A stretch of 64,000 nucleotides of DNA from Eledone cirrhosa (Eukaryota): assembly GCA_964016885.1 (NCBI GenBank), contig OZ024765.1:23735551-23799550 (forward strand), read 5' to 3'. Both the position numbers and the translations under genes were made by a program. Position 1 is the first letter of the stretch. Each line of letters opens with the position of its first letter. Positions 1 through 57,319 of the stretch are shown piece by piece. The notes beneath the pieces are model-generated. The model did no database searches and was not told the DNA's origin. It saw only the letters and a list, made by a program, of their open reading frames with translations.

Positions 1-3000
1 AAAAGCTAAGCTCACACAACTGATGGAAGCTATGAAGTAGGAAGATCTAGGATGAGGTGATAAAAGCTGACCTCAGATATTATTTATATTGAGAATACCT
101 TAATATCAGTAAGAGTGGCTTGAACAGAAAAAGGGGACAGAATTCTGGTCGGTTTAAATGTTAAAGAGTTAATCAACTTTCAGTGGATTACGTTCCAATT
201 TCCTGGAAGCTATACAGTAGGAAGACCTGGGATGAGGTGATAAAAGCTGACCTGACACAATTGATGGAAGCTATGAAGTAGGAAGACCTGGGATGAGGTG
301 ATAAAAGCTGACCTCACACAATTGATGGAAGCTATGAAGTAGGAAGATCTAGGATGTGATAAAAGCTGACCTCAGACAATTGATGGAAGCTATGAAGTAG
401 GAAGACATAGTTTGAGGTGATAAAAGCTGACCTCAGACAATTGATGGAAGCTATGAAGTAGGAAGACCTGGGATGAGGTGATAAAAGCTGACCTTACACA
501 ATTGATGGAAGCTATGAAGTAGGAAGATCTAGGATGTGATAAAAGCTGACCACAGACAATTGATGGAAGCTATGAAGTAGGAAGACCTGGGATGAGGTGA
601 TAAAAGCTGACCTCACACAACTGATGGAAGCTATGAAGTAGGAAGATCTAGGATGTGATAAAAGCTGACCTCAGACAATTGATCGAAGCTATGAAGTAGG
701 AAGACCTGGGATGAGGTGATAAAATCTGGCCTCACACAACTGATGGAAGCTATGAAGTAGGAAGACATAGTTTGAGGTGATAAAAGCTGACCTCAGACAA
801 TTGATGGAAGCTATGAAGTAGGAAGACCTGGGATGAGGTGATAAAAGCTGACCTCACACAACTGATGGAAGCTATGAAGTAGGAAGATCTAGGATGTGAT
901 AAAAGCTGACCTCAGACAATTGATCGAAGCTATGAAGTAGGAAGACCTGGGATGAGGTGATAAAATCTGGCCTCACACAACTGATGGAAGCTATGAAGTA
1001 GGAAGACATAGTTTGAGGTGATAAAAGCTGACCTCAGACAATTGATGGAAGCTATGCCGTAGGAAGACCTGGGATGAGGTAATAAAAGCTGACCTCAGAC
1101 AATTGATCGAAGCTATGAAGTAGGAAGACCTGGCATGAGGTGATAAAAGCTGACCTCAGACAATTGATCGAAGCTATGAAGTAGGAAGACCTGGGATGAG
1201 GTGATAAAAGCTGACCTCAGATAATTGATCGAAGCTATGAAGTAGGAAGACCTGGGATGAGGTGATAAAAGCTGACCTCAGACAATTGATCGAAGCTATG
1301 AAGTAGGAAGACCTGGGATGAGGTGATAAAAGTTGACCTCACACAATTGATGGAAGCTATGAAGTAGGAAGACCTAGTTTGAGGTGATAAAAGCTGACCT
1401 CAGACAATTGATAGAAGCTATGAAGTAGGAAGACCTGGGATGAGGTGATAAAAGCTGACCTCACACAACTGATGGAAGCTATGAAGTAGGAAGACCTGGG
1501 ATGAGGTGATAAAAGCAGAGCTCCCACAACTGATGGAAGCTATGAAGTAGGAAGATCTATCATGAGGTGATAAAAGCTGACCTCACACAATTGATGGAAG
1601 CTATGAAGTAGGAAGACCTGGGATGAGGTTATAAAAGCTGACTTCACACAATTGATGGAAGCTATGAAGTAGGAAGACCTGGGATGAGGTGATAAAAGCT
1701 GACCTGACACAATTGATGGAAGTTATGGAGTAGGAAGACCTAGTTTGAGGTGATAAAAGCTGACCTCACACAATTGATGGAAGCTATGAAGCAGGAAGAC
1801 CTGGGATGAGGTGATAAAAGCTGACCTCACATAATTGATGGAAGCTATGAAGTAGGAAGACCTGGGATGAGGTGATAAAACCTGACCTCACACAACTGAT
1901 GGAAGCTATGAAGTAGGAAGATCTAGTTTGAGGTGATAAAAGCTCACCTCACACAATTGATGGAAGCTATGAAGTAGGAAGATCTAGGATGAGGTGATAA
2001 AAGCTGACCTCAGACAACTGATGGAAGCTATGAAGTAGGAAGACCTGGGATGAGGTGATAAAAGCTGAGCTCACACAACTGATGGAAGCTATGAAGTAGG
2101 AAGATCTAGGATGAGGTGATAAAAGCTGACCTCAGATATTATTTATATTGAGAATACCTTAATATCAGTAAGAGTGGCTTGAACAGAAAAAGGGGACAGA
2201 ATTCTGGTCGGTTTAAATGTTAAAGAGTTAATCAACTTTCAGTGGATTACGTTCCAATTTCCTGGAAGCTATACAGTAGGAAGACCTGGGATGAGGTGAT
2301 AAAAGCTGACCTGACACAATTGATGGAAGCTATGAAGTAGGAAGACCTGGGATGAGGTGATAAAAGCTGACCTCAGACAATTGATGGAAGCTATGAAGTA
2401 GGAAGATCTAGGATGTGATAAAAGCTGACCTCAGACAATTGATGGAAGCTATGAAGTAGGAAGACATAGTTTGAGGTGATAACAGCTGACCTCAGACAAT
2501 TGATGGAAGCTATGAAGTAGGAAGACCTGGGATGAGGTGATAAAAGCTGACCTCCCACAATTGATGGAAGCTATGAAGTAGGAAGATCTAGGATGAGGTG
2601 ATAAAAGCTGACCTCACACAATTGATGGAAGCTATGAAGTAGGAAGATCTATCATAAGGTGATAAAAGATGACCTCACACAACTGATGGAAGCTATGAAG
2701 TAGGAAGATCAAGGATGAGGTGATAAAAGCTGACCTCAGACAATTGATGGAAGCTATGGAGTAGGAAGACCTGGGATGAGGTGATAAAAGCTGACCTCAC
2801 ACAATTGATGGAAGCTATGAAGTAGGAAGACCTGGGATGAGGTGATAAAAGCTGACCTCAGACAATTGATGGAAGCTATGAAGTAGGAAGACCTGGGATG
2901 AGGTGATAAAAGCTGACCTCACACAACTGATGGAAGCTATGGAGTAGGAAGACCTGTGATGAGGTGATAAAAGATGACCTCACACAACTGATGGAAGCTA

Positions 3001-6000
3001 TGAAGTAGGAAGATCAAGGATGAGGTGATAAAAGCTGACCTCAGACAATTGATGGAAGCTATAGAGTAGGAAGACCTGGGATGAGGTGATAAAAGTTGAC
3101 CTCACACAATTGATGGAAGCTATGAAGTAGGAAGACCTAGTTTGAGGTGATAAAAGCTGACCTCAGACAATTGATGGAAGCTATGAAGTAGGAAGACCTG
3201 GGATGAGGTGATAAAAGCTGACCTCACACAACTGATGGAAGCTATGGAGTAGGAAGACCTGTGATGAGGTGATAAAAGATGACCTCACACAACTGATGGA
3301 AGCTATGAAGTAGGAAGATCAAGGATGAGGTGATAAAAGCTGACCTCAGACAATTGATGGAAGCTATAGAGTAGGAAGACCTGGGATGAGGTGATAAAAG
3401 TTGACCTCACACAATTGATGGAAGCTATGAAGTAGGAAGACCTAGTTTGAGGTGATAAAAGCTGACCTCAGACAATTGATAGAAGCTATGAAGTAGGAAG
3501 ACCTGGGATGAGGTGATAAAAGCTGACCTGACACAATTGATGGAAGTTATGGAGTAGGAAGACCTAGTTTGAGGTGATAAAAGCTGACCTCACACAATTG
3601 ATGGAAGCTATGAAGCAGGAAGACCTGGGATGAGGTGATAAAAGCTGACCTCACATAATTGATGGAAGCTATGAAGTAGGAAGACCTGGGATGAGGTGAT
3701 AAAAGCTGACCTCACACAACTGATGGAAGCTATGAAGTAGGAAGATCTAGTTTGAGGTGATAAAAGCTGAGCTCACACAACTGATGGAAGCTATGAAGTA
3801 GGAAGATCTAGGATGAGGTGATAAAAGCTGACCTCAGACAACTGATGGAAGCTATGAAGTAGGAAGACCTGGGATGAGGTGATAAAAGCTAAGCTCACAC
3901 AACTGATGGAAGCTATGAAGTAGGAAGATCTAGGATGAGGTGATAAAAGCTGACCTCAGATATTATTTATATTGAGAATACCTTAATATCAGTAAGAGTG
4001 GCTTGAACAGAAAAAGGGGACAGAATTCTGGTCGGTTTAAATGTTAAAGAGTTAATCAACTTTCAGTGGATTACGTTCCAATTTCCTGGAAGCTATACAG
4101 TAGGAAGACCTGGGATGAGGTGATAAAAGCTGACCTGACACAATTGATGGAAGCTATGAAGTAGGAAGACCTGGGATGAGGTGATAAAAGCTGACCTCAC
4201 ACAATTGATGGAAGCTATGAAGTAGGAAGATCTAGGATGTGATAAAAGCTGACCTCAGACAATTGATGGAAGCTATGAAGTAGGAAGACATAGTTTGAGG
4301 TGATAAAAGCTGACCTCAGACAATTGATGGAAGCTATGAAGTAGGAAGACCTGGGATGAGGTGATAAAAGCTGACCTTACACAATTGATGGAAGCTATGA
4401 AGTAGGAAGATCTAGGATGTGATAAAAGCTGACCACAGACAATTGATGGAAGCTATGAAGTAGGAAGACCTGGGATGAGGTGATAAAAGCTGACCTCACA
4501 CAACTGATGGAAGCTATGAAGTAGGAAGATCTAGGATGTGATAAAAGCTGACCTCAGACAATTGATCGAAGCTATGAAGTAGGAAGACCTGGGATGAGGT
4601 GATAAAATCTGGCCTCACACAACTGATGGAAGCTATGAAGTAGGAAGACATAGTTTGAGGTGATAAAAGCTGACCTCAGACAATTGATGGAAGCTATGAA
4701 GTAGGAAGACCTGGGATGAGGTGATAAAAGCTGACCTCACACAACTGATGGAAGCTATGAAGTAGGAAGATCTAGGATGTGATAAAAGCTGACCTCAGAC
4801 AATTGATCGAAGCTATGAAGTAGGAAGACCTGGGATGAGGTGATAAAATCTGGCCTCACACAACTGATGGAAGCTATGAAGTAGGAAGACATAGTTTGAG
4901 GTGATAAAAGCTGACCTCAGACAATTGATGGAAGCTATGCCGTAGGAAGACCTGGGATGAGGTAATAAAAGCTGACCTCAGACAATTGATCGAAGCTATG
5001 AAGTAGGAAGACCTGGCATGAGGTGATAAAAGCTGACCTCAGACAATTGATCGAAGCTATGAAGTAGGAAGACCTGGGATGAGGTGATAAAAGCTGACCT
5101 CAGATAATTGATCGAAGCTATGAAGTAGGAAGACCTGGGATGAGGTGATAAAAGCTGACCTCAGACAATTGATCGAAGCTATGAAGTAGGAAGACCTGGG
5201 ATGAGGTGATAAAAGTTGACCTCACACAATTGATGGAAGCTATGAAGTAGGAAGACCTAGTTTGAGGTGATAAAAGCTGACCTCAGACAATTGATAGAAG
5301 CTATGAAGTAGGAAGACCTGGGATGAGGTGATAAAAGCTGACCTCACACAACTGATGGAAGCTATGAAGTAGGAAGACCTGGGATGAGGTGATAAAAGCA
5401 GAGCTCCCACAACTGATGGAAGCTATGAAGTAGGAAGATCTATCATGAGGTGATAAAAGCTGACCTCACACAATTGATGGAAGCTATGAAGTAGGAAGAC
5501 CTGGGATGAGGTTATAAAAGCTGACTTCACACAATTGATGGAAGCTATGAAGTAGGAAGACCTGGGATGAGGTGATAAAAGCTGACCTGACACAATTGAT
5601 GGAAGTTATGGAGTAGGAAGACCTAGTTTGAGGTGATAAAAGCTGACCTCACACAATTGATGGAAGCTATGAAGCAGGAAGACCTGGGATGAGGTGATAA
5701 AAGCTGACCTCACATAATTGATGGAAGCTATGAAGTAGGAAGACCTGGGATGAGGTGATAAAACCTGACCTCACACAACTGATGGAAGCTATGAAGTAGG
5801 AAGATCTAGTTTGAGGTGATAAAAGCTCACCTCACACAATTGATGGAAGCTATGAAGTAGGAAGATCTAGGATGAGGTGATAAAAGCTGACCTCAGACAA
5901 CTGATGGAAGCTATGAAGTAGGAAGACCTGGGATGAGGTGATAAAAGCTGAGCTCACACAACTGATGGAAGCTATGAAGTAGGAAGATCTAGGATGAGGT

Positions 6001-9000
6001 GATAAAAGCTGACCTCAGATATTATTTATATTGAGAATACCTTAATATCAGTAAGAGTGGCTTGAACAGAAAAAGGGGACAGAATTCTGGTCGGTTTAAA
6101 TGTTAAAGAGTTAATCAACTTTCAGTGGATTACGTTCCAATTTCCTGGAAGCTATACAGTAGGAAGACCTGGGATGAGGTGATAAAAGCTGACCTGACAC
6201 AATTGATGGAAGCTATGAAGTAGGAAGACCTGGGATGAGGTGATAAAAGCTGACCTCAGACAATTGATGGAAGCTATGAAGTAGGAAGATCTAGGATGTG
6301 ATAAAAGCTGACCTCAGACAATTGATGGAAGCTATGAAGTAGGAAGACATAGTTTGAGGTGATAACAGCTGACCTCAGACAATTGATGGAAGCTATGAAG
6401 TAGGAAGACCTGGGATGAGGTGATAAAAGCTGACCTCCCACAATTGATGGAAGCTATGAAGTAGGAAGATCTAGGATGAGGTGATAAAAGCTGACCTCAC
6501 ACAATTGATGGAAGCTATGAAGTAGGAAGATCTATCATAAGGTGATAAAAGCTGACCTCAGACAATTGATTTGAAGCTATGAAGTAGGAAGACCTGGGAT
6601 GAGGTGATAAAAGCTGACCTCACACAATTGATGGAAGCTATGAAGTAGGAAGACCTGGGATGAGGTGATAAAAGCAGAGCTCCCACAATTGATGGAAGCT
6701 ATGAAGTAGGAAGACCTGGGATGAGGTGATAAAAGCTGACCTGACACAATTGATGGAAGCTATGGAGCAGAAAGACCTAGGATGAGGTGATAAAAGCTGA
6801 CCTCACGATTGATGGAAGTTATGAAGTAGGAAGATCTAGGATGAGGTGATAAAAACTGACCTCAGACAATTGATAGAAGCTATGAAGTAGGAAGACCTGG
6901 GATGAGGTGATAAAAGCTGACCTCAGACAATTGATGGAAGCTATGAAGTAGGAAGACCTGGGATGAGGTGATAAAAGCTGACCTCACACAATTGATGGAA
7001 GCTATGGAGTAGGAAGACCTGGGATGAGGTGATAAAAGCTGACCTCACACAATTGATGGAAGCTATGGAGTAGGAAGACCTGGGATGAGGTGATAAAAGA
7101 TGACCTCACACAACTGATGGAAGCTATGAAGTAGGAAGATCAAGGATGAGGTGATAAAAGCTGACCTCAGACAATTGATGGAAGCTATGGAGTAGGAAGA
7201 CATAGTTTGAGGTGATAAAAGCTGACCTCAGACAATTGATGGAAGCTATGAAGTAGGAAGACCTGGGATGAGGTGATAAAAGATGACCTCACACAACTGA
7301 TGGAAGCTATGAAGTAGGAAGATCTAGGATGTGATAATAGCTGACCTCAGACAATTGATCGAAGCTATGAAGTAGGAAGACCTGGGATGAGGTGATAAAA
7401 TCTGGCCTCACACAACTGATGGAAGCTATGAAGTAGGAAGACATAGTTTGAGGTGATAAAAGCTGACCTCAGACAATTGATGGAAGCTATGAAGTAGGAA
7501 GACCTGGGATGAGGTGATAAAAGCTGACCTCAGACAATTGATGGAAGCTATGCCGTAGGAAGACCTGGGATGAGGTGATAAAAGCTGACCTCACACAATT
7601 GATGGAAGCTATGAAGTAGGAAGACATAGTTTGAGGTGATAAAAGCTGACCTCAGACAATTGATGGAAGCTATGAAGTAGGAAGACCTGGGATGAGGTGA
7701 TAAAAGCTGACCTCCCACAATTGATGGAAGCTATGAAGTAGGAAGATCTATCATGAGGTGATAAAAGCTGACCTCAGACAATTGATTTGAAGCTATGAAG
7801 TAGGAAGACCTGGGATGAGGTGATAAAAGCTGACCTCACACAATTGATGGAAGCTATGAAGTAGGAAGACCTGGGATGAGGTGATAAAAGCAGAGCTCCC
7901 ACAATTGATGGAAGCTATGAAGTAGGAAGACCTGGGATGAGGTGATAAAAGCTGACCTGACACAATTGATGGAAGCTATGGAGCAGAAAGACCTAGGATG
8001 AGGTGATAAAAGCTGACCTCACGATTGATGGAAGTTATGAAGTAGGAAGATCTAGGATGAGGTGATAAAAACTGACCTCAGACAATTGATAGAAGCTATG
8101 AAGTAGGAAGACCTGGGATGAGGTGATAAAAGCTGACCTCAGACAATTGATGGAAGCTATGAAGTAGGAAGACCTGGGATGAGGTGATAAAAGCTGACCT
8201 CACACAATTGATGGAAGCTATGGAGTAGGAAGACCTGGGATGAGGTGATAAAAGCTGACCTCACACAATTGATGGAAGCTATGGAGTAGGAAGACCTGGG
8301 ATGAGGTGATAAAAGCTGACCTCAGACAATTGATGGAAGCTATGAAGTAGGAAGACCTGGGATGAGGTGATAAAAGCTGACCTCACACAACTGATGGAAG
8401 CTATGGAGTAGGAAGACCTGTGATGAGGTGATAAAAGCTGACCTCACACAACTGATGGAAGCTATGAAGTAAGAAGATCAAGGATGAGGTGATAAAAGCT
8501 GACCTCAGACAATTGATCGAAGCTATGAATTAGGAAGACCTGGGATGAGGTAATAAAAGCTGACCTCACACAATTGATGGAAGCTATAGAGTAGGAAGAC
8601 CTGGGATAAGGTGATAAAAGTTGACCTCACACAATTGATGGAAGCTATGAAGTAGGAAGACCTAGTTTGAGGTGATAAAAGCTGACCTCAGACAATTGAT
8701 AGAAGCTATGAAGTAGGAAGACCTGGGATGAGGTGATAAAAGCTGACCTCACACAACTGATGAAAGCTATGAAGTAGGAAGATCTATCATGAGGTGATAA
8801 AAGCTGACCTTACACAATTGATGGAAGCTATGAAGTAGGAAGACCTGGGATGAGGTTATAAAAGCTGACTTCACACAATTGATGGAAGCTATGAAGTAGG
8901 AAGACCTGGGATGACGTGATAAAAGCTGACCTGACACAATTGATGGAAGTTATGTAGTAGGAAGACCTAGTTTGAGGTGATAAAAGCTGACCTCACACAA

Positions 9001-12000
9001 TTGATGGAAGCTATGAAGCAGGAAGACCTGGGATGAGGTGATAAAAGCTGACCTCACATAATTGATGGAAGCTATGAAGTAGGAAGACCTGGGATGAGGT
9101 GATAAAAGCTGACCTCACACAACTGATGGAAGCTATGAAGTAGGAAGATCTAGTTTGAGGTGATAAAAGCTCACCTCACACAATTGATGGAAGCTATGAA
9201 GTAGGAAGATCTAGGATGAGGTGATAAAAGCTGACCTCAGACAACTGATGGAAGCTATGAAGTAGGAAGACCTGGGATGAGGTGATAAAAGCTAAGCTCA
9301 CACAACTGATGGAAGCTATGAAGTAGGAAGATCTAGGATGAGGTGATAAAAGCTGACCTCAGATATTATTTATATTGAGAATACCTTAATATCAGTAAGA
9401 GTGGCTTGAACAGAAAAAGGGGACAGAATTCTGGTCGGTTTAAATGTTAAAGAGTTAATCAACTTTCAGTGGATTACGTTCCAATTTCCTGGAAGCTATA
9501 CAGTAGGAAGACCTGGGATGAGGTGATAAAAGCTGACCTGACACAATTGATGGAAGCTATGAAGTAGGAAGACCTGGGATGAGGTGATAAAAGCTGACCT
9601 CAGACAATTGATGGAAGCTATGAAGTAGGAAGATCTAGGATGTGATAAAAGCTGACCTCAGACAATTGATGGAAGCTATGAAGTAGGAAGACATAGTTTG
9701 AGGTGATAACAGCTGACCTCAGACAATTGATGGAAGCTATGAAGTAGGAAGACCTGGGATGAGGTGATAAAAGCTGACCTCCCACAATTGATGGAAGCTA
9801 TGAAGTAGGAAGATCTAGGATGAGGTGATAAAAGCTGACCTCACACAATTGATGGAAGCTATGAAGTAGGAAGATCTATCATAAGGTGATAAAAGCTGAC
9901 CTCAGACAATTGATTTGAAGCTATGAAGTAGGAAGACCTGGGATGAGGTGATAAAAGCTGACCTCACACAATTGATGGAAGCTATGAAGTAGGAAGACCT
10001 GGGATGAGGTGATAAAAGCAGAGCTCCCACAATTGATGGAAGCTATGAAGTAGGAAGACCTGGGATGAGGTGATAAAAGCTGACCTGACACAATTGATGG
10101 AAGCTATGGAGCAGAAAGACCTAGGATGAGGTGATAAAAGCTGACCTCACGATTGATGGAAGTTATGAAGTAGGAAGATCTAGGATGAGGTGATAAAAAC
10201 TGACCTCAGACAATTGATAGAAGCTATGAAGTAGGAAGACCTGGGATGAGGTGATAAAAGCTGACCTCAGACAATTGATGGAAGCTATGAAGTAGGAAGA
10301 CCTGGGATGAGGTGATAAAAGCTGACCTCACACAATTGATGGAAGCTATGGAGTAGGAAGACCTGGGATGAGGTGATAAAAGCTGACCTCACACAATTGA
10401 TGGAAGCTATGGAGTAGGAAGACCTGGGATGAGGTGATAAAAGATGACCTCACACAACTGATGGAAGCTATGAAGTAGGAAGATCAAGGATGAGGTGATA
10501 AAAGCTGACCTCAGACAATTGATGGAAGCTATGGAGTAGGAAGACCTGGGATGAGGTGATAAAAGCTGACCTCACACAATTGATGGAAGCTATGAAGTAG
10601 GAAGACCTGGGATGAGGTGATAAAAGCTGACCTCAGACAATTGATGGAAGCTATGAAGTAGGAAGACCTGGGATGAGGTGATAAAAGCTGACCTCACACA
10701 ACTGATGGAAGCTATGGAGTAGGAAGACCTGTGATGAGGTGATAAAAGATGACCTCACACAACTGATGGAAGCTATGAAGTAGGAAGATCAAGGATGAGG
10801 TGATAAAAGCTGACCTCAGACAATTGATGGAAGCTATAGAGTAGGAAGACCTGGGATGAGGTGATAAAAGTTGACCTCACACAATTGATGGAAGCTATGA
10901 AGTAGGAAGACCTAGTTTGAGGTGATAAAAGCTGACCTCAGACAATTGATAGAAGCTATGAAGTAGGAAGACCTGGGATGAGGTGATAAAAGCTGACCTG
11001 ACACAATTGATGGAAGTTATGGAGTAGGAAGACCTAGTTTGAGGTGATAAAAGCTGACCTCACACAATTGATGGAAGCTATGAAGCAGGAAGACCTGGGA
11101 TGAGGTGATAAAAGCTGACCTCACATAATTGATGGAAGCTATGAAGTAGGAAGACCTGGGATGAGGTGATAAAAGCTGACCTCACACAACTGATGGAAGC
11201 TATGAAGTAGGAAGATCTAGTTTGAGGTGATAAAAGCTGAGCTCACACAACTGATGGAAGCTATGAAGTAGGAAGATCTAGGATGAGGTGATAAAAGCTG
11301 ACCTCAGACAACTGATGGAAGCTATGAAGTAGGAAGACCTGGGATGAGGTGATAAAAGCTAAGCTCACACAACTGATGGAAGCTATGAAGTAGGAAGATC
11401 TAGGATGAGGTGATAAAAGCTGACCTCAGATATTATTTATATTGAGAATACCTTAATATCAGTAAGAGTGGCTTGAACAGAAAAAGGGGACAGAATTCTG
11501 GTCGGTTTAAATGTTAAAGAGTTAATCAACTTTCAGTGGATTACGTTCCAATTTCCTGGAAGCTATACAGTAGGAAGACCTGGGATGAGGTGATAAAAGC
11601 TGACCTGACACAATTGATGGAAGCTATGAAGTAGGAAGACCTGGGATGAGGTGATAAAAGCTGACCTCACACAATTGATGGAAGCTATGAAGTAGGAAGA
11701 TCTAGGATGTGATAAAAGCTGACCTCAGACAATTGATGGAAGCTATGAAGTAGGAAGACATAGTTTGAGGTGATAAAAGCTGACCTCAGACAATTGATGG
11801 AAGCTATGAAGTAGGAAGACCTGGGATGAGGTGATAAAAGCTGACCTTACACAATTGATGGAAGCTATGAAGTAGGAAGATCTAGGATGTGATAAAAGCT
11901 GACCACAGACAATTGATGGAAGCTATGAAGTAGGAAGACCTGGGATGAGGTGATAAAAGCTGACCTCACACAACTGATGGAAGCTATGAAGTAGGAAGAT

Positions 12001-39000: not shown

Positions 39001-42000
39001 GTAGGAAGACCTGGGATGAGGTGATAAAAGCTGACCTCCCACAATTGATGGAAGCTATGAAGTAGGAAGATCTAGGATGAGGTGATAAAAGCTGACCTCA
39101 CACAATTGATGGAAGCTATGAAGTAGGAAGATCTTTCATGAGGTGATAAAAGCTGACCTCAGACAATTGATTTGAAGCTATGAAGTAGGAAGACCTGGGA
39201 TGAGGTGATAAAAGCTGACCTCAGACAATTGATGGAAGCTATGAAGTAGGAAGACCTGGGATGAGGTGATAAAAGCTGACCTCACACAATTGATGGAAGC
39301 TATGGAGTAGGAAGACCTGGGATGAGGTGATAAAAGCTGACCTCACACAATTGATGGAAGCTATGGAGTAGGAAGACCTGGGATGAGGTGATAAAAGCTG
39401 ACCTCAGACAATTGATGGAAGCTATGAAGTAGCAAGACCTGCGATGAGGTGATAAAAGCTGACCTCACACAATTGATGGAAGCTATGGAGTAGGAAGACC
39501 TGTGATGAGGTGATAAAAGCTGACCTCACACAACTGATGGAAGCTATGAAGTAGGAAGATCAAGGATGAGGTGATAAAAGCTGACCTCAGACAATTGATC
39601 GAAGCTATGAAGTAGGAAGACCTGGGATGAGGTAATAAAAGCTGACCTCACACAATTGATGGAAGCTATAGAGTAGGAAGACCTGGGATGAGGTGATAAA
39701 AGTTGACCTCACACAATTGATGGAAGCTATGAAGTAGGAAGACCTAGTTTGAGGTGATAAAAGCTGACCTCAGACAATTGATAGAAGCTATGAAGTAGGA
39801 AGACCTGGGATGAGGTGATAAAAGCTGACCTCACACAACTGATGGAAGCTATGAAGTAGGAAGATCTATCATGAGGTGATAAAAGCTGACCTCACACAAT
39901 TGATGGAAGCTATGAAGTAGGAAGACCTGGGATGAGGTTATAAAAGCTGACTTCACACAATTGATGGAAGCTATGAAGTAGGAAGACCTGGGATGAGGTG
40001 ATAAAAGTTGACCTGACACAATTGATGGAAGTTATGGAGTAGGAAGACCTAGTTTGAGGTGATAAAAGCTGACCTCACACAATTGATGGAAGCTATGAAG
40101 TAGGAAGACCTGGGATGAGGTGATAAAAGCTGACCTCACATAATTGATGGAAGCTATGAAGTAGGAAGACCTGGGATGAGGTGATAAAACCTGACCTCAC
40201 ACAACTGATGGAAGCTATGAAGTAGGAAGATCTAGTTTGAGGTGATAAAAGCTCACCTCACACAATTGATGGAAGCTATGAAGTAGGAAGATCTAGGATG
40301 AGGTGATAAAAGCTGACCTCAGACAACTGATGGAAGCTATGAAGTAGGAAGACCTGGGATGAGGTGATAAAAGCTGAGCTCACACAACTGATGGAAGCTA
40401 TGAAGTAGGAAGATCTAGGATGAGGTGATAAAAGCTGACCTCAGATATTATTTATATTGAGAATACCTTAATATCAGTAAGAGTGGCTTGAACAGAAAAA
40501 GGGGACAGAATTCTGGTCGGTTTAAATGTTAAAGAGTTAATCAACTTTCAGTGGATTACGTTCCAATTTCCTGGAAGCTATACAGTAGGAAGACCTGGGA
40601 TGAGGTGATAAAAGCTGACCTGACACAATTGATGGAAGCTATGAAGTAGGAAGACCTGGGATGAGGTGATAAAAGCTGACCTCACACAATTGATGGAAGC
40701 TATGAAGTAGGAAGATCTAGGATGTGATAAAAGCTGACCTCAGACAATTGATGGAAGCTATGAAGTAGGAAGACATAGTTTGAGGTGATAAAAGCTGACC
40801 TCAGACAATTGATGGAAGCTATGAAGTAGGAAGACCTGGGATGAGGTGATAAAAGCTGACCTCACACAACTGATGGAAGCTATGAAGTAGGAAGATCTAG
40901 GATGTGATAAAAGCTGACCTCAGACAATTGATCGAAGCTATGAAGTAGGAAGACCTGGGATGAGGTGATAAAATCTGGCCTCACACAACTGATGGAAGCT
41001 ATGAAGTAGGAAGACATAGTTTGAGGTGATAAAAGCTGACCTCAGACAATTGATGGAAGCTATGCCGTAGGAAGACCTGGGATGAGGTGATAAAAGCTGA
41101 CCTCACACAATTGATGGAAGCTATGAAGTAGGAAGACATAGTTTGAGGTGATAAAAGCTGACCTCAGACAATTGATGGAAGCTATGAAGTAGGAAGACCT
41201 GGGATGAGGTGATAAAAGCTGACCTCCCACAATTGATGGAAGCTATGAAGTAGGAAGATCTAGGATGAGGTGATAAAAGCTGACCTCACACAATTGATGG
41301 AAGCTATGAAGTAGGAAGATCTATCATGAGGTGATAAAAGCTGACCTCAGACAATTGATTTGAAGCTATGAAGTAGGAAGACCTGGGATGAGGTGATAAA
41401 AGCTGACCTCAGACAATTGATGGAAGCTATGAAGTAGGAAGACCTGGGATGAGGTGATAGAAGCAGAGCTCCCACAATTGATGGAAGCTATGAAGTAGGA
41501 AGACCTGGGATGAGGTGATAAAAGCTGACCTGACACAATTGATGGAAGCTATGGAGCAGAAAGACCTAGGATGAGGTGATAAAAGCTGACCTCACGATTG
41601 ATGGAAGTTATGAAGTAGGAAGATCTAGGATGAGGTGATAAAAGCTGACCTCACACAATTGATGGAAGCTATGGAGTAGGAAGACCTGGGATGAGGTGAT
41701 AAAAGCTGACCTCACACAATTGATGGAAGCTATGGAGTAGGAAGACCTGGGATGAGGTGATAAAAGCTGACCTCAGACAATTGATGGAAGCTATGAAGTA
41801 GGAAGACCTGGGATGAGGTAATAAAAGCTGACCTCACACAATTGATGGAAGCTATAGAGTAGGAAGACCTGGGATGAGGTGATAAAAGTTGACCTCACAC
41901 AATTGATGGAAGCTATGAAGTAGGAAGACCTAGTTTGAGGTGATAAAAGCTGACCTCAGACAATTGATAGAAGCTATGAAGTAGGAAGACCTGGGATGAG

Positions 42001-45000
42001 GTGATAAAAGCTGACCTCACACAACTGATGGAAGCTATGAAGTAGGAAGATCTATCATGAGGTGATAAAAGCTGACCTTACACAATTGATGGAAGCTATG
42101 AAGTAGGAAGACCTGGGATGAGGTTATAAAAGCTGACTTCACACAATTGATGGAAGCTATGAAGTAGGAAGACCTGGGATGAGGTGATAAAAGCTGACCT
42201 GACACAATTGATGGAAGTTATGGAGTAGGAAGACCTAGTCTGAGGTGATAAAAGCTGACCTCACACAATTGATGGAAGCTATGAAGCAGGAAGACCTGGG
42301 ATGAGGTGATAAAAGCTGACCTCACATAATTGATGGAAGCTATGAAGTAGGAAGACCTGGGATGAGGTGATAAAAGCTGACCTCACACAACTCATGGAAG
42401 CTATGAAGTAGGAAGATCTAGTTTGAGGTGATAAAAGCTCACCTCACACAATTGATGGAAGCTATGAAGTAGGAAGATCTAGGATGAGGTGATAAAAGCT
42501 GACCTCAGACAACTGATGGAAGCTATGAAGTAGGAAGACCTGGGATGAGGTGATAAAAGCTGAGCTCACACAACTGATGGAAGCTATGAAGTAGGAAGAT
42601 CTAGGATGAGGTGATAAAAGCTGACCTCAGATATTATTTATATTGAGAATACCTTAATATCAGTAAGAGTGGCTTGAACAGAAAAAGGGGACAGAATTCT
42701 GGTCGGTTTAAATGTTAAAGAGTTAATCAACTTTCAGTGGATTACGTTCCAATTTCCTGGAAGCTATACAGTAGGAAGACCTGGGATGAGGTGATAAAAG
42801 CTGACCTGACACAATTGATGGAAGCTATGAAGTAGGAAGACCTGGGATGAGGTGATAAAAGCTGACCTCACACAATTGATGGAAGCTATGAAGTAGGAAG
42901 ATCTAGGATGTGATAAAAGCTGACCTCAGACAATTGATGGAAGCTATGAAGTAGGAAGACATAGTTTGAGGTGATAAAAGCTGACCTCAGACAATTGATG
43001 GAAGCTATGAAGTAGGAAGACCTGGGATGAGGTGATAAAAGCTGACCTCACACAACTGATGGAAGCTATGAAGTAGGAAGATCTAGGATGTGATAAAAGC
43101 TGACCTCAGACAATTGATCGAAGCTATGAAGTAGGAAGACCTGGGATGAGGTGATAAAATCTGGCCTCACACAACTGATGGAAGCTATGAAGTAGGAAGA
43201 CATAGTTTGAGGTGATAAAAGCTGACCTCAGACAATTGATGGAAGCTATGCCGTAGGAAGACCTGGGATGAGGTGATAAAAGCTGACCTCACACAATTGA
43301 TGGAAGCTATGAAGTAGGAAGACATAGTTTGAGGTGATAAAAGCTGACCTCAGACAATTGATGGAAGCTATGAAGTAGGAAGACCTGGGATGAGGTGATA
43401 AAAGCTGACCTCCCACAATTGATGGAAGCTATGAAGTAGGAAGATCTAGGATGAGGTGATAAAAGCTGACCTCACACAATTGATGGAAGCTATGAAGTAG
43501 GAAGATCTATCATGAGGTGATAAAAGCTGACCTCAGACAATTGATTTGAAGCTATGAAGTAGGAAGACCTGGGATGAGGTGATAAAAGCTGACCTCAGAC
43601 AATTGATGGAAGCTATGAAGTAGGAAGACCTGGGATGAGGTGATAGAAGCAGAGCTCCCACAATTGATGGAAGCTATGAAGTAGGAAGACCTGGGATGAG
43701 GTGATAAAAGGTGACCTGACACAATTGATGGAAGCTATGGAGCAGAAAGACCTAGGATGAGGTGATAAAAGCTGACCTCACGATTGATGGAAGTTATGAA
43801 GTAGGAAGATCTAGGATGAGGTGATAAAAACTGACCTCAGACAATTGATAGAAGCTATGAAGTAGGAAGACCTGGGATGAGGTGATAAAAGCTGACCTCA
43901 GACAATTGATGGAAGCTATGAAGTAGGAAGACCTGGGATGAGGTGATAAAAGCTGACCTCACATAATTGATGGAAGCTATGGAGTAGGAAGACCTGGGAT
44001 GAGGTGATAAAAGCTGACCTCACACAATTGATGGAAGCTATGGAGTAGGAAGACCTGGGATGAGGTGATAAAAGCTGACCTCAGACAATTGATGGAAGCT
44101 ATGAAGTAGGAAGACCTGGGATGAGGTAATAAAAGCTGACCTCACACAATTGATGGAAGCTATAGAGTAGGAAGACCTGGGATGAGGTGATAAAAGTTGA
44201 CCTCACACAATTGATGGAAGCTATGAAGTAGGAAGACCTAGTTTGAGGTGATAAAAGCTGACCTCAGACAATTGATAGAAGCTATGAAGTAGGAAGACCT
44301 GGGATGAGGTGATAAAAGCTGACCTCACACAACTGATGGAAGCTATGAAGTAGGAAGATCTATCATGAGGTGATAAAAGCTGACCTTACACAATTGATGG
44401 AAGCTATGAAGTAGGAAGACCTGGGATGAGGTTATAAAAGCTGACTTCACACAATTGATGGAAGCTATGAAGTAGGAAGACCTGGGATGAGGTGATAAAA
44501 GCTGACCTGACACAATTGATGGAAGTTATGGAGTAGGAAGACCTAGTCTGAGGTGATAAAAGCTGACCTCACACAATTGATGGAAGCTATGAAGCAGGAA
44601 GACCTGGGATGAGGTGATAAAAGCTGACCTCACATAATTGATGGAAGCTATGAAGTAGGAAGACCTGGGATGAGGTGATAAAAGCTGACCTCACACAACT
44701 CATGGAAGCTATGAAGTAGGAAGATCTAGTTTGAGGTGATAAAAGCTCACCTCACACAATTGATGGAAGCTATGAAGTAGGAAGATCTAGGATGAGGTGA
44801 TAAAAGCTGACCTCAGACAACTGATGGAAGCTATGAAGTAGGAAGACCTGGGATGAGGTGATAAAAGCTGAGCTCACACAACTGATGGAAGCTATGAAGT
44901 AGGAAGATCTAGGATGAGGTGATAAAAGCTGACCTCAGATATTATTTATATTGAGAATACCTTAATATCAGTAAGAGTGGCTTGAACAGAAAAAGGGGAC

Positions 45001-48000
45001 AGAATTCTGGTCGGTTTAAATGTTAAAGAGTTAATCAACTTTCAGTGGATTACGTTCCAATTTCCTGGAAGCTATACAGTAGGAAGACCTGGGATGAGGT
45101 GATAAAAGCTGACCTGACACAATTGATGGAAGCTATGAAGTAGGAAGACCTGGGATGAGGTGATAAAAGCTGACCTCACACAATTGATGGAAGCTATGAA
45201 GTAGGAAGATCTAGGATGTGATAAAAGCTGACCTCAGACAATTGATGGAAGCTATGAAGTAGGAAGACATAGTTTGAGGTGATAAAAGCTGACCTCAGAC
45301 AATTGATGGAAGCTATGCCGTAGGAAGACCTGGGATGAGGTGATAAAAGCTGACCTCACACAATTGATGGAAGCTATGAAGTAGGAAGACATAGTTTGAG
45401 GTGATAAAAGCTGACCTCAGACAATTGATGGAAGCTATGAAGTAGGAAGACCTGGGATGAGGTGATAAAAGCTGACCTCCCACAATTGATGGAAGCTATG
45501 AAGTAGGAAGATCTAGGATGAGGTGATAAAAGCTGACCTCACACAATTGATGGAAGCTATGAAGTAGGAAGATCTATCATGAGGTGATAAAAGCTGACCT
45601 CAGACAATTGATTTGAAGCTATGAAGTAGGAAGACCTGGGATGAGGTGATAAAAGCTGACCTCAGACAATTGATGGAAGCTATGAAGTAGGAAGACCTGG
45701 GATGAGGTGATAGAAGCAGAGCTCCCACAATTGATGGAAGCTATGAAGTAGGAAGACCTGGGATGAGGTGATAAAAGCTGACCTGACACAATTGATGGAA
45801 GCTATGGAGCAGAAAGACCTAGGATGAGGTGATAAAAGCTGACCTCACGATTGATGGAAGTTATGAAGTAGGAAGATCTAGGATGAGGTGATAAAAACTG
45901 ACCTCAGACAATTGATAGAAGCTATGAAGTAGGAAGACCTGGGATGAGGTGATAAAAGCTGACCTCAGACAATTGATGGAAGCTATGAAGTAGGAAGACC
46001 TGGGATGAGGTGATAAAAGCTGACCTCACACAATTGATGGAAGCTATGGAGTAGGAAGACCTGGGATGAGGTGATAAAAGCTGACCTCACACAATTGATG
46101 GAAGCTATGGAGTAGGAAGACCTGGGATGAGGTGATAAAAGCTGACCTCAGACAATTGATGGAAGCTATGAAGTAGGAAGACCTGGGATGAGGTAATAAA
46201 AGCTGACCTCACACAATTGATGGAAGCTATAGAGTAGGAAGACCTGGGATGAGGTGATAAAAGTTGACCTCACACAATTGATGGAAGCTATGAAGTAGGA
46301 AGACCTAGTTTGAGGTGATAAAAGCTGACCTCAGACAATTGATAGAAGCTATGAAGTAGGAAGACCTGGGATGAGGTGATAAAAGCTGACCTCACACAAC
46401 TGATGGAAGCTATGAAGTAGGAAGATCTATCATGAGGTGATAAAAGCTGACCTTACACAATTGATGGAAGCTATGAAGTAGGAAGACCTGGGATGAGGTT
46501 ATAAAAGCTGACTTCACACAATTGATGGAAGCTATGAAGTAGGAAGACCTGGGATGAGGTGATAAAAGCTGACCTGACACAATTGATGGAAGTTATGGAG
46601 TAGGAAGACCTAGTCTGAGGTGATAAAAGCTGACCTCACACAATTGATGGAAGCTATGAAGCAGGAAGACCTGGGATGAGGTGATAAAAGCTGACCTCAC
46701 ATAATTGATGGAAGCTATGAAGTAGGAAGACCTGGGATGAGGTGATAAAAGCTGACCTCACACAACTCATGGAAGCTATGAAGTAGGAAGATCTAGTTTG
46801 AGGTGATAAAAGCTCACCTCACACAATTGATGGAAGCTATGAAGTAGGAAGATCTAGGATGAGGTGATAAAAGCTGACCTCAGACAACTGATGGAAGCTA
46901 TGAAGTAGGAAGACCTGGGATGAGGTGATAAAAGCTGAGCTCACACAACTGATGGAAGCTATGAAGTAGGAAGATCTAGGATGAGGTGATAAAAGCTGAC
47001 CTCAGATATTATTTATATTGAGAATACCTTAATATCAGTAAGAGTGGCTTGAACAGAAAAAGGGGACAGAATTCTGGTCGGTTTAAATGTTAAAGAGTTA
47101 ATCAACTTTCAGTGGATTACGTTCCAATTTCCTGGAAGCTATACAGTAGGAAGACCTGGGATGAGGTGATAAAAGCTGACCTGACACAATTGATGGAAGC
47201 TATGAAGTAGGAAGACCTGGGATGAGGTGATAAAAGCTGACCTCACACAATTGATGGAAGCTATGAAGTAGGAAGATCTAGGATGTGATAAAAGCTGACC
47301 TCAGACAATTGATGGAAGCTATGAAGTAGGAAGACATAGTTTGAGGTGATAAAAGCTGACCTCAGACAATTGATGGAAGCTATGCCGTAGGAAGACCTGG
47401 GATGAGGTGATAAAAGCTGACCTCACACAATTGATGGAAGCTATGAAGTAGGAAGACATAGTTTGAGGTGATAAAAGCTGACCTCAGACAATTGATGGAA
47501 GCTATGAAGTAGGAAGACCTGGGATGAGGTGATAAAAGCTGACCTCCCACAATTGATGGAAGCTATGAAGTAGGAAGATCTAGGATGAGGTGATAAAAGC
47601 TGACCTCACACAATTGATGGAAGCTATGAAGTAGGAAGATCTATCATGAGGTGATAAAAGCTGACCTCAGACAATTGATTTGAAGCTATGAAGTAGGAAG
47701 ACCTGGGATGAGGTGATAAAAGCTGACCTCAGACAATTGATGGAAGCTATGAAGTAGGAAGACCTGGGATGAGGTGATAGAAGCAGAGCTCCCACAATTG
47801 ATGGAAGCTATGAAGTAGGAAGACCTGGGATGAGGTGATAAAAGCTGACCTGACACAATTGATGGAAGCTATGGAGCAGAAAGACCTAGGATGAGGTGAT
47901 AAAAGCTGACCTCACGATTGATGGAAGTTATGAAGTAGGAAGATCTAGGATGAGGTGATAAAAACTGACCTCAGACAATTGATAGAAGCTATGAAGTAGG

Positions 48001-51000
48001 AAGACCTGGGATGAGGTGATAAAAGCTGACCTCAGACAATTGATGGAAGCTATGAAGTAGGAAGACCTGGGATGAGGTGATAAAAGCTGACCTCACACAA
48101 TTGATGGAAGCTATGGAGTAGGAAGACCTGGGATGAGGTGATAAAAGCTGACCTCACACAATTGATGGAAGCTATGGAGTAGGAAGACCTGGGATGAGGT
48201 GATAAAAGCTGACCTCAGACAATTGATGGAAGCTATGAAGTAGGAAGACCTGGGATGAGGTAATAAAAGCTGACCTCACACAATTGATGGAAGCTATAGA
48301 GTAGGAAGACCTGGGATGAGGTGATAAAAGTTGACCTCACACAATTGATGGAAGCTATGAAGTAGGAAGACCTAGTTTGAGGTGATAAAAGCTGACCTCA
48401 GACAATTGATAGAAGCTATGAAGTAGGAAGACCTGGGATGAGGTGATAAAAGCTGACCTCACACAACTGATGGAAGCTATGAAGTAGGAAGATCTATCAT
48501 GAGGTGATAAAAGCTGACCTTACACAATTGATGGAAGCTATGAAGTAGGAAGACCTGGGATGAGGTTATAAAAGCTGACTTCACACAATTGATGGAAGCT
48601 ATGAAGTAGGAAGACCTGGGATGAGGTGATAAAAGCTGACCTGACACAATTGATGGAAGTTATGGAGTAGGAAGACCTAGTCTGAGGTGATAAAAGCTGA
48701 CCTCACACAATTGATGGAAGCTATGAAGCAGGAAGACCTGGGATGAGGTGATAAAAGCTGACCTCACATAATTGATGGAAGCTATGAAGTAGGAAGACCT
48801 GGGATGAGGTGATAAAAGCTGACCTCACACAACTCATGGAAGCTATGAAGTAGGAAGATCTAGTTTGAGGTGATAAAAGCTCACCTCACACAATTGATGG
48901 AAGCTATGAAGTAGGAAGATCTAGGATGAGGTGATAAAAGCTGACCTCAGACAACTGATGGAAGCTATGAAGTAGGAAGACCTGGGATGAGGTGATAAAA
49001 GCTGAGCTCACACAACTGATGGAAGCTATGAAGTAGGAAGATCTAGGATGAGGTGATAAAAGCTGACCTCAGATATTATTTATATTGAGAATACCTTAAT
49101 ATCAGTAAGAGTGGCTTGAACAGAAAAAGGGGACAGAATTCTGGTCGGTTTAAATGTTAAAGAGTTAATCAACTTTCAGTGGATTACGTTCCAATTTCCT
49201 GGAAGCTATACAGTAGGAAGACCTGGGATGAGGTGATAAAAGCTGACCTGACACAATTGATGGAAGCTATGAAGTAGGAAGACCTGGGATGAGGTGATAA
49301 AAGCTGACCTCACACAATTGATGGAAGCTATGAAGTAGGAAGATCTAGGATGTGATAAAAGCTGACCTCAGACAATTGATGGAAGCTATGAAGTAGGAAG
49401 ACATAGTTTGAGGTGATAAAAGCTGACCTCAGACAATTGATGGAAGCTATGAAGTAGGAAGACCTGGGATGAGGTGATAAAAGCTGACCTTACACAATTG
49501 ATGGAAGCTATGAAGTAGGAAGATCTAGGATGTGATAAAAGCTGACCTCAGACAATTGATGGAAGCTATGAAGTAGGAAGACCTGGGATGAGGTGATAAA
49601 AGCTGACCTCACACAACTGATGGAAGCTATGAAGTAGGAAGATCTAGGATGTGATAAAAGCTGACCTCAGACAATTGATCGAAGCTATGAAGTAGGAAGA
49701 CCTGGGATGAGGTGATAAAATCTGGCCTCACACAACTGATGGAAGCTATGAAGTAGGAAGACATAGTTTGAGGTGATAAAAGCTGACCTCAGACAATTGA
49801 TGGAAGCTATGCCGTAGGAAGACCTGGGATGAGGTGATAAAAGCTGACCTCACACAATTGATGGAAGCTATGAAGTAGGAAGACATAGTTTGAGGTGATA
49901 AAATTGACCTCAGACAATTGATGGAAGCTATGAAGTAGGAAGACCTGGGATGAGGTGATAAAAGCTGACCTCCCACAATTGATGGAAGCTATGAAGTAGG
50001 AAGATCTAGGATGATGTGATAAAAGCTGACCTCACACAATTGATGGAAGCTATGAAGTAGGAAGATCTATCATGAGGTGATAAAAGCTGACCTCAGACAA
50101 TTGATTTGAAGCTATGAAGTAGGAAGACCTGGGATGAGGTGATAAAAGCTGACCTCACACAATTGATGGAAGCTATGAAGTAGGAAGACCTGGGATGAGG
50201 TGATAAAAGTTGACCTCACACAATTGATGGAAGCTATGAAGTAGGAAGACCTAGTTTGAGGTGATAAAAGCTGACCTCAGACAATTGATGGAAGCTATGA
50301 AGTAGGAAGACCTGGGATGAGGTGATAAAAGCAGAGCTCCCACAATTGATGGAAGCTATGAAGTAGGAAGACCTGGGATGAGGTGATAAAAGCTGACCTG
50401 ACACAATTGATGGAAGCTATGGAGCAGAAAGACCTAGGATGAGGTGATAAAAGCTGACCTCACGATTGATGGAAGTTATGAAGTAGGAAGATCTAGGATG
50501 AGGTGATAAAAACTGACCTCAGACAATTGATAGAAGCTATGAAGTAGGAAGACCTGGGATGAGGTGATAAAAGCTGACCTCAGACAATTGATGGAAGCTA
50601 TGAAGTAGGAAGACCTGGGATGAGGTGATAAAAGCTGACCTCACACAATTGATGGAGGCTATGAAGTAGGAAGACCTGGGATGAGGTGATAAAAGCTGAC
50701 CTCAGACAATTGATGGAAGCTATGAAGTAGGAAGATCTGGGATGAGGTAATAAAAGCTGACCTCACACAATTGATGGAAGCTATGGAGTAGGAAGACCTG
50801 GGATGAGGTGATAAAAGTTGACCTCACACAATTGATGGAAGCTATGAAGTAGGAAGACCTAGTTTGAGGTGATAAAAGCTGACCTCAGACAATTGATAGA
50901 AGCTATGAAGGAGGAAGACCTGTGATGAGGTGATAAAAGCTGACCTCACACAACTGATGGAAGCTATGAAGTAGGAAGATCTATCATGAGGTGATAAAAG

Positions 51001-52286
51001 CTGACCTTACACAATTGATGGAAGCTATGAAGTAGGAAGACCTGGGATGAGGTTATAAAAGCTGACTTCACACAATTGATGGAAGCTATGAAGTAGGAAG
51101 ACCTGGGATGAGGTGATAAAAGCTGACCTGACACAATTGATGGAAGCTATGAAGTAGGAAGACCTGGGATGAGGTGATAAAAGCTGACCTCACACAACTG
51201 ATGGAAGCTATGAAGTAGGAAGATCTAGTTTGAGGTGATAAAAGCTCACCTCACACAATTGATGGAAGCTATGAAGTAGGAAGATCTAGGATGAGGTGAT
51301 AAAAGCTGACCTCAGACAACTGATAGAAGCTATGAAGTAGGAAGACCTGGGATGAGGTGATAAAAGCTGAGCTCACACAACTGATGGAAGCTATGAAGTA
51401 GGAAGATCTAGGATGAGGTGATAAAAGCTGACCTCAGATATTATTTATATTGAGAATACCTTAATATCAGTAAGAGTGGCTTGAACAGAAAAAGGGGACA
51501 GAATTCTGGTCGGTTTAAATGTTAAAGAGTTAATCAACTTTCAGTGGATTACGTTCCAATTTCCTGGAAGCTATACAGTAGGAAGACCTGGGATGAGGTG
51601 ATAAAAGCTGACCTGACACAATTGATGGAAGCTATGAAGTAGGAAGATCTGGGATGTGATAAAAGCTGACCTCAGACAATTGATGGAAGCTATGAAGTAG
51701 GAAGACATAGTTTGAGGTGATAAAAGCTGACCTCAGACAATTGATGGAAGCTATGAAGTAGGAAGACCTGGGATGAGGTGATAAAAGCTGACCTTACACA
51801 ATTGGTGGAAGCTATGAAGTAGGAAGATCTAGGATGTGATAAAAGCTGACCTCAGACAATTGATGGAAGCTATGAAGTAGGAAGACATAGTTTGAGGTGA
51901 TAAAAGCTGACCTCAGACAATTGATGGAAGCTATGAAGTAGGAAGACCTGGGATGAGGTGATAAAAGTTGACCTCACACAACTGATGGAAGCTATGAAGT
52001 AGGAAGATCTAGGATGTGATAAAAGCTGACCTCAGACAATTGATCGAAGCTATGAAGTAGGAAGACCTGGGATGAGGTGATAAAAGCTGACCTCCCACAA
52101 TTGATGGAAGCTATGAAGTAGGAAGATCTAGGATGAGGTGATAAAAGCTGACCTCACACAATTGATGGAAGCTATGAAGTAGGAAGATCTATCATGAGGT
52201 GATAAAAGCTGACCTCAGACAATTGATTTGAAGCTATGAAGTAGGAAGACCTGGGATGAGGTGATAAAAGCTGACCTGACACAATT
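1..52286 (+). repeat. Satellite array of a 61-bp monomer (consensus GGAAGCTATGAAGTAGGAAGACCTGGGATGAGGTGATAAAAGCTGACCTCACACAATTGAT), roughly 800 copies; probably extends beyond the left window edge
   Basis: Head-to-tail repeats with a 61-bp period and recurrent 58/59/62-bp indel variants. Consensus has 40/61 purines on the + strand and no CpG. Ends at ...GACCTGACACAATT (52286). Confidence 0.99.
78..203 (+). repeat. ~126-bp non-satellite spacer, first of 25 near-identical copies inside the array
   Basis: TATTATTTATATTGAGAATACC...GAATTC...GGTTTAAATGTTAAAGAGTTAATC...CCAATTTCC. Copies start at 78, 2137, 3961, 6020, 9364, 11431, 13490, 14991, 16385, 19168, 20385, 21480, 24943, 25855, 26824, 27736, 31507, 35277, 37222, 40446, 42632, 44940, 47007, 49074 and 51439. 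Confidence 0.97.
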
Positions 52287-52360
52287 ACACTTCTCAAAGA
52301 CAATGACACAGGATCGAGATCTTTGTTGTTATACAGTAATATAGAAGACCAGCCTTCCCT
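52287..52360 (+). mobile_element. RTE-clade LINE 3' remnant contiguous with the last satellite monomer
   Basis: Reading through from the last monomer gives RKTWDEVIKADLTQLHFSKTMTQDRDLCCYTVI*KT. 52271-52350 aligns ungapped (66/80 by eye) to the reverse complement of 59198-59277. Confidence 0.9.
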
Positions 52361-52429
52361 AGCATTGGTATCAATGACTCCCACATGGACATCAATACAC
52401 ATCTATATATACACACCTAACATATTGAA

Positions 52430-52612
52430 GACCCACGTGGGTCACAAATGACCATGTGATTTGCAACTAGAAAGTTCCCCTCCAAGGCACAAGTCTGGTT
52501 GTTTGAGGAAGACCAGCAGTCACCCAAGTATATCAGTCTACCCTCTCCACATCACTGATGATGTCCAAGGGAAAGGCAATGGCTGACAGCTTGACACCAG
52601 TGACATCACAAC
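52430..52612 (-). mobile_element. Probable SINE body/3' fragment
   Basis: Higher-GC block (GGTCACAAATGACC...GGAAGACCAGCAGTC...CCAAGGGAAAGGC...CACCAGTGAC) resembling an abundant octopus SINE recalled from memory; not verified by search. Confidence 0.45.
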
Positions 52613-57313: not shown

Positions 57314-57319
57314 CGCGAG

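What the first reader, a model, noticed from the sequence alone, without database searches (positions are those of the whole stretch)
1..52360. A >52-kb satellite born in situ from the coding 3' end of an RTE LINE
Seen: the 61-bp monomer encodes IDGSYEVGRP in one frame and RKTWDEVIKADL in another. The last monomer continues without a break into LHFSKTMTQDRDLCCYTVI*KT. That junction (52271-52350) aligns ungapped at 66/80 to the minus-strand RTE copy at 59198-59277, which also carries AATTGATGGAAG..AGGAAGACCT..GGATGAGG..AAAACTGACCTGACAC. Other local RTE fragments give VEGSHGRGRPSKTWTEAV and WAEVVRADL. Known: GRPRKTW is the conserved C-terminal motif of RTE ORFs, and TE-derived satellites are documented in other animals. 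Inference: one old LINE insertion had 61 bp amplified about 800-fold at its original site, leaving the birth junction intact.
Basis: partly seen in the sequence, partly recalled or inferred. Interest (0 to 1): 0.88.

Follow-up and report, generated by a model that had tools for sequence, protein, structure and literature searches.

The report
LINE-born satellite spread by zinc-finger genes
A 61-letter piece of a jumping gene sits as a short repeat beside about 90 zinc-finger gene copies in this genome and has grown into a giant block at two of them (67 kb here, 107 kb elsewhere), likely because one old insertion was copied along with the genes and then expanded twice independently.

Summary
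The 61-bp monomer is the ORF end of a LINE, and the array runs on into the LINE's 3' part (66/80 confirmed). Closer dispersed donors match 81-92%.

The single-locus birth claim fails. The same ~190-bp LINE stub, with the same flanks, stands at about 90 places on 20 contigs. It lies beside a C2H2 zinc-finger exon in 60 of 72 arrays examined. Seventy hold 1-58 copies; two are giant: this one (66.7 kb, ~1,040 monomers, starting 14.4 kb before the window) and one on C17 (106.6 kb, ~1,750).

The giants share no exact monomer, and each has small-array sister loci, so they expanded independently. This one grew as ~2-kb higher-order units that captured 126 bp of left flank 30 times. No upstream LINE lies at the left edge.

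Retroelement-derived satellites with a kept junction are known, and the scan found other LINE-derived satellites in this genome. What is unusual is the complete paralog series from 1 to 1,750 copies. No function is shown.

The parts
1..52286 (+). 61-bp tandem array, window part (about 810 monomers) of a 66.7-kb array, G000:C26:23721104-23787836, about 1,040 monomers
78..203 (+). First in-window copy of the 126-bp spacer: a captured copy of the array's own left flank (140 bp there, 14 bp deleted here). 25 copies in the window, 30 in the array, median spacing 2,067 bp; it marks the higher-order unit
51439..51564 (+). Last spacer copy
52221..52286 (+). Last monomer, continuous with the LINE remainder
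52287..52406 (+). Unamplified remainder of the LINE stub: ORF end and start of the 3' UTR; the rest of the UTR and the tail are missing
52407..53031 (.). Right flank shared with paralogous loci (47 of 71 loci at 52690-53090)
53032..54018 (.). Unrelated 49-bp minisatellite, shared with about 40 of 71 paralogous loci
55300..56200 (-). Block found on the same side of the stub at other zinc-finger units; holds a predicted non-coding exon (about 55484-55693) with canonical splice sites, which would place the array in a 5' intron
   Evidence: exon predicted from sequence only, no RNA
59051..59907 (-).
61897..62643 (-). C2H2 zinc-finger ORF of the next tandem unit (the 84-bp repeat)

Best explanation
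The array is a LINE-derived tandem repeat whose seed, a ~190-bp LINE stub, stands with the same flanks at about 90 places, mostly beside C2H2 zinc-finger genes, and was likely inserted once, copied with the genes and then expanded locally. Step 1 (shown by similarity): the stub comes from a dispersed LINE subfamily that has the same 10-bp deletion near the ORF end. Step 2 (inferred): its first 61 bp duplicated by slippage between two AATTG repeats that lie 61 bp apart in the donor. Step 3 (shown as paralogy; mechanism inferred): tandem and inter-chromosomal duplication of the zinc-finger unit carried the seed, which drifted between 1 and 58 copies. Step 4 (inferred from the tree): two loci jumped 50- to 75-fold, independently. 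Step 5 (shown as structure; mechanism inferred): here a ~2-kb piece made of the flank tail plus about 30 monomers was duplicated and multiplied about 30 times, likely by unequal exchange or break-induced copying. The array is most likely a neutral passenger.
For: Left-junction pattern 71 hits and right-flank pattern 55 hits, 0 in controls; 90 distinct places on 20 contigs, and 36 paired places hold 1-37 copies. Of 72 arrays in fetched DNA, 68 have the left flank, 54 the LINE 3' continuation, 61 the right flank, and 60 a zinc-finger motif on the opposite strand within 4.5 kb to the left, 0 on the same strand. The C17 giant was found by a monomer-only pattern and still has the cassette flank. 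Flank tree of 59 loci: this array's sister holds 19 copies (2.5% apart, bootstrap 100); C17's sisters hold 23-24 copies (2.9-3.8%); the giants are 12.5% apart; one clade for both is rejected, p-AU 4e-75. 0 exact 61-mer types shared, of 117 and 87. The monomer-spacer junction occurs 29 times, all in this array; 27 full-length spacer units differ by 0.37% on average. Spacing between cassettes varies from 11 kb to over 300 kb, unlike a fixed mobile element. Donors match 81-91.5% and 10 of 10 deletion-type donors tested carry upstream LINE ORF.
Against: Most loci were picked by flank-containing patterns, so shared flanks are partly by selection; monomer-only searches listed only the first 100 of 1,285 and 2,657 hits. 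One orphan ~55-bp junction fragment lies in unrelated DNA (L099). No clean pre-duplication locus was found: the only complete one-copy locus (L151) carries a derived state, not the donor state, and is likely a collapse. No target-site duplication or empty site was identified. Direction of change (growth of the giants rather than shrinkage of sisters) rests on parsimony. A 7.5-kb stretch is duplicated with one difference, so part of the length could be an assembly error. No sister species could be checked.
Confidence: 0.85

Rival explanations
1. One reading: one LINE inserted at this site and 61 bp of it were amplified here only.
For: Intact 3' junction; the higher-order unit with captured flank is private to this locus, so the giant did grow here.
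Against: About 90 places share the stub and flanks; second giant on C17; this locus is a derived tip of the flank tree with a flank deletion shared by one sister.
Confidence: 0.03
2. The zinc-finger exon, inverted-repeat element and stub form a mobile cassette (a DNA transposon with cargo) that spreads the repeat, as Helentrons do in oyster.
For: Presence on 20 contigs in both orientations; an element with TTAA ends and 16/18 inverted repeats abuts the left flank.
Against: The inverted-repeat element closes before the stub; loci cluster in tandem with very unequal unit sizes; shared flank coverage fades stepwise; on C20 the stub rides in a 100-130-kb tandem unit. Cassette ends were not mapped exhaustively (flanks of 4.5 kb).
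Confidence: 0.07
3. The giant arrays are largely assembly inflation of an ordinary 20-35-copy minisatellite.
For: Some higher-order units are identical over 2-3 kb. In three short-read runs of one sample the depth ratio of a monomer word to the spacer junction is about 95-100, against 42 in the assembly (1,210/29); a weak hint only, as the tool says depth is no copy number.
Against: 117 monomer types and irregular unit lengths of 911-3,772 bp; no N in the C17 stretch; a short-read contig bridges the monomer-spacer junction at depth 172-205, far above the depths of about 4-17 of the lowest listed contigs. These runs may be the assembly's own sample.
Confidence: 0.05

Closest known systems
SINE-derived satellites (sSats) of squamates, PMC10702118 (abstract, Discussion section and passages read)
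   Same: Tandem unit of 67-290 nt from part of a retroposon, a longer terminal unit that continues to the element's end, loci from a few to about 1,000 units.
   Different: Here the source is a LINE ORF end; the loci descend from one insertion with shared flanks beside zinc-finger genes; one giant has a ~2-kb higher-order unit with captured flank. In the passages read, spread by segmental duplication is not discussed ('segmental': 0 occurrences).
Satellites containing LINE ORF2 pieces: chicken HinfI/CR1, Phodopus PROsat/L1, seal Pvc 20, cetacean common satellite/L1, as listed in review PMC9659126 (passages and table)
   Same: LINE coding or 3' sequence as satellite material.
   Different: The passages describe similarity of mature satellites to LINEs; here the donor subfamily, the stub, small arrays and giant arrays are all in one assembly.
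Satellite-like arrays carried by Helentrons in Pacific oyster, PMC7492417 (search listing and start of abstract only)
   Same: Short arrays dispersed with conserved flanks in a mollusc genome.
   Different: The carrier here is likely gene duplication, not a mobile element.
Octopod C2H2 zinc-finger clusters, PMC9795677 (passages)
   Same: Tandem clusters on several chromosomes. The best named hit for the neighbouring zinc-finger protein is from Octopus sinensis, so the genome is likely an octopod.
   Different: The passages read mention no LINE-derived repeat in the units. A link between satellites and zinc-finger clusters in octopus and human is recalled only; the paper was not held and a search found none.

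Membership tests
Retroelement-derived satellite | Long head-to-tail array of one monomer | tested here: met
   66.7 kb, about 1,040 monomers, 7.6% mean pairwise divergence
Retroelement-derived satellite | Monomer homologous to part of a retroelement above chance | tested here: met
   66/80 against a shuffle maximum of 44; 81-91.5% to 14 dispersed copies
Retroelement-derived satellite | Terminal unit continues into the element | tested here: met
   3' side yes (54 of 72 arrays); 5' side has no upstream LINE
Single-locus satellite at its birth site | One locus, unique flanks | tested here: not met
Non-LTR retrotransposon (donor) | ORF with reverse transcriptase and AP endonuclease | tested here: met
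   A nearby 723-aa ORF ends in the monomer peptide and has RVT_1, E 6e-32, and PHD; full-length relatives of 1,030-1,110 aa carry PF03372 plus PF00078
RTE clade (donor) | Single ORF, no ORF1 (PMC13295347, passages) | tested here: inconclusive
   Relatives are single ~1,050-aa proteins mostly on 3.3-4.3-kb contigs, which fits; no full-length copy of this genome was examined
RTE clade (donor) | RT phylogeny with named RTE elements | not testable with these tools
   No named RTE reference among the hits; the label and the GRPRKTW motif are recalled. RTE LINEs are reported in octopus (PMC9115989, passages), identity to this family untested
RTE clade (donor) | Microsatellite-like 3' tail and target-site duplication | tested here: inconclusive
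   The stub lacks its tail; donor tails were not mapped
Higher-order-repeat satellite | Multi-monomer units more alike than their monomers | tested here: met
   Units of equal length differ by 0-0.05% within subfamilies while monomers differ by 7.6%; unit length irregular
Centromeric or subtelomeric satellite | Location and chromatin role | not testable with these tools
   This array ends 11.7 kb from the end of a 23.8-Mb contig, with no telomere repeat seen; the C17 array is interstitial, 10.2 of 44.7 Mb

The most novel reading that the evidence does not exclude
The repeat lies in the 5' intron of about 90 zinc-finger transcription-factor genes and acts as a copy-number dial on them: rare jumps to 67-107 kb, possibly still polymorphic between homologous chromosomes, silence or retime single paralogs, so a LINE scrap drives turnover of the octopod zinc-finger repertoire.
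Probability: 0.08. Interest if true: 0.7.

Novelty: new variant of a known kind. Interest (0 to 1): 0.42.

Why it matters
Satellite birth is usually inferred from end products. Here one assembly holds the donor LINE subfamily, about 90 paralogous seeds of 1-58 copies with a resolvable flank tree, and two independent jumps to over 1,000 copies, one with its first higher-order duplication marked by a captured flank. That allows direct tests of seed drift versus sudden amplification and of why 2 of about 90 equivalent seeds took off. It is tempered by the finding that unrelated minisatellites fill 8-22% of three neighbouring or paralogous stretches, so local tandem growth is routine in this genome, and by the lack of any evidence for function.

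Tried and rejected
Upstream LINE at the left edge: absent. Donor upstream sequence matched the left 1.5 kb in 3 of 72 loci, each ending over 800 bp before the stub.

One-copy locus L151 as the ancestral state: rejected as likely secondary. It was among 9 of 68 loci left out of the tree for lacking the upstream anchor. Three of 62 short fetched regions gave no row (L099, L104, L109).

A third giant array: on the + strand only 177 of 2,196 monomer-junction hits lie outside the two giant regions; the - strand has 461 in all, spread over many small loci. A diverged giant would be missed.

Expression and gene structure: no RNA holder listed. The three runs cover introns and repeats evenly and gave no usable joints. 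Splice-site conservation is uninformative because paralogs are mostly 85-97% alike throughout.

An ungapped comparison of the array's majority monomer with each donor was left out; donor identity rests on the last monomer plus its continuation.

Rfam on 50000-64000: no match.

Literature: searches showed no paper on this repeat (listings only, except papers cited as read). The first octopus genome paper was not held. No supplements were opened; repeat libraries there may already list this satellite.

Earlier scan notes: nothing by sequence, by words or near this place.
Full report
Setting. The window is the last 64 kb of contig C26 of a 3.0-Gb genome. The best named hit of the neighbouring zinc-finger protein is from Octopus sinensis, so it is likely an octopod.

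TRF finds a 61-bp array at 204-52286. The last monomer runs in frame into a LINE ORF end, and the quoted 80-mer matches the minus-strand copy at 66/80, against at most 44 in 200 shuffles. A 723-aa ORF about 70 kb upstream ends in almost the same peptide and carries RVT_1 and PHD domains. Its full-length relatives are single proteins of about 1,050 aa with endonuclease and RT. The donor is a non-LTR retrotransposon. RTE fits the architecture, but no named reference was available for a tree.

The true donor subfamily is dispersed. A 31-letter monomer word has 1,210 hits. Of 14 isolated hits fetched, 13 are ordinary LINE copies with the same 10-bp deletion as the monomer and one is a cassette locus. 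76 places have the undeleted form. Fourteen dispersed copies match the last monomer plus continuation at 81-91.5%; the window's own copy gives 81%. The deletion removes one of two short direct repeats and explains the two reading frames. In the donors the monomer is bounded by AATTG on both sides, which suggests slippage as the first duplication (inferred).

The left edge. The array starts 14,447 bp before the window, giving 66.7 kb and about 1,040 monomers. Left of it is no LINE sequence but a short host flank, a small element with TTAA ends and inverted repeats (piggyBac-like; label recalled), and, 1.9 kb from the array, an open zinc-finger ORF on the opposite strand (480 aa from its first methionine). 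A tandem paralog 10.9 kb upstream has the same anatomy with two monomers.

Not single-locus. The right junction matched full length at 40 of 40 scored candidates. Exact junction patterns give 71 and 55 hits with none in controls, together 90 places on 20 contigs; 36 paired places hold 1-37 copies. The four C17 loci come on top. In fetched DNA 72 arrays were scored: 68 have the left flank, 54 the LINE continuation, 61 the right flank and 60 a zinc-finger motif to the left on the opposite strand; 70 hold 1-58 copies, median 7. About 58 of 71 share the whole stretch to the zinc-finger exon. These loci were largely chosen by flank patterns, which favours shared flanks. Monomer-only searches, of which only the first 100 hits were listed, led to cassette loci, free LINE copies and one orphan fragment. 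Spacing between cassettes is very unequal, and on C20 the stub is carried in a 100-130-kb tandem unit, which points to segmental duplication.

Two independent giants. C17:10183116-10289736 holds 106.6 kb, about 1,750 monomers, followed by three tandem sisters of 23-24 copies. The giants share no exact 61-mer. In a flank tree of 59 loci (median distance 10.3%) this array groups with a 19-copy locus about 290 kb upstream (2.5% apart), C17 groups with its neighbours (2.9-3.8%), and the giants are 12.5% apart. Holding them together is rejected. Each giant's monomers are nearest to those of its own sisters.

How this one grew. Thirty spacers (25 in the window) interrupt the array at a median 2,067 bp. 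The spacer is a 126-bp copy of the array's own left flank, and its junction exists only here (29 exact hits). Spacers differ by 0.37% and some units are identical over 2-3 kb. The unit of amplification was therefore about the size of the ancestral minisatellite plus flank tail, and the growth is recent (inferred). A contig from three runs of one sample bridges the junction; these may be the assembly's own sample. Its depth relative to a monomer word is about half of what the assembly predicts, a weak hint of heterozygosity or of under-assembled arrays elsewhere.

Against and open. The only complete one-copy locus carries a derived state and is likely a collapse, so the pre-duplication state is inferred from the donors. 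No target duplication or empty site was found. A block right of the array with a predicted exon lies on the same side at other units, so the array may be intronic, but no RNA holder was listed. The C17 zinc-finger frame is open for 479 aa but has no start methionine. Sister species could not be checked. Other minisatellites fill 8-22% of three stretches examined.

Comparison. Satellites from parts of retroposons with a kept terminal unit and up to about 1,000 repeats are described in reptiles (PMC10702118; abstract, Discussion, passages), and LINE ORF pieces in satellites are reviewed in PMC9659126 (passages). Earlier notes of this scan report other LINE-derived satellites in this genome (not checked by me). 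The difference here is one seed spread by gene-family duplication with two separate take-offs.

Verdict. Real; LINE origin right; single-site birth wrong. New variant of a known kind, interest 0.42.

Noticed in passing
G000:C17:10183116-10289736 (L082-L093): Second, larger array of the same monomer (106.6 kb), with no spacer and irregular periodicity.
   Followed up: yes
G000:C20:3.5-5.3 Mb (L061-L076) and C27:13.1-15.4 Mb: Tandem units of roughly 70-210 kb, about 98% alike between two C20 neighbours where compared, with exon-like cysteine-rich pieces; 20 other minisatellites fill 22% of 160 kb, including a 9.2-kb 54-bp array that starts inside such a piece.
   Followed up: partly
L023:3925-4457: The inverted-repeat element left of the stub has its own 60-bp tandem expansion in the two-copy paralog; related 72- and 144-bp expansions on C20.
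   Followed up: no
L099:4040-4095 (G000:C5:66723042): Orphan ~55-bp piece spanning the tail-to-head junction of the satellite in unrelated DNA, possibly a templated insertion at a break.
   Followed up: no
window 53032-54018: 49-bp minisatellite of varying length that travels with the same cassette.
   Followed up: partly
G000:C26:23429152-23433623 (L077-L078): Sister locus has two arrays (19 and 20 copies) 2 kb apart, the second with a partial left flank: a separate local duplication.
   Followed up: partly
L138 (G000:C23:28.62 Mb): A later repeat insertion splits one small array, and another array there abuts zinc-finger coding sequence directly.
   Followed up: no
window 56950-57500 and 63270-63900: Two diverged copies of another repeat with open frames of 243 and 153 aa; a similar frame lies at the sister locus. 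Unidentified.
   Followed up: no
G000:C26, about 86-82 kb upstream of the window (L029): A second LINE type with long open frames (742 and 409 aa), also present on C20 with a 1,152-aa frame; looks young.
   Followed up: no
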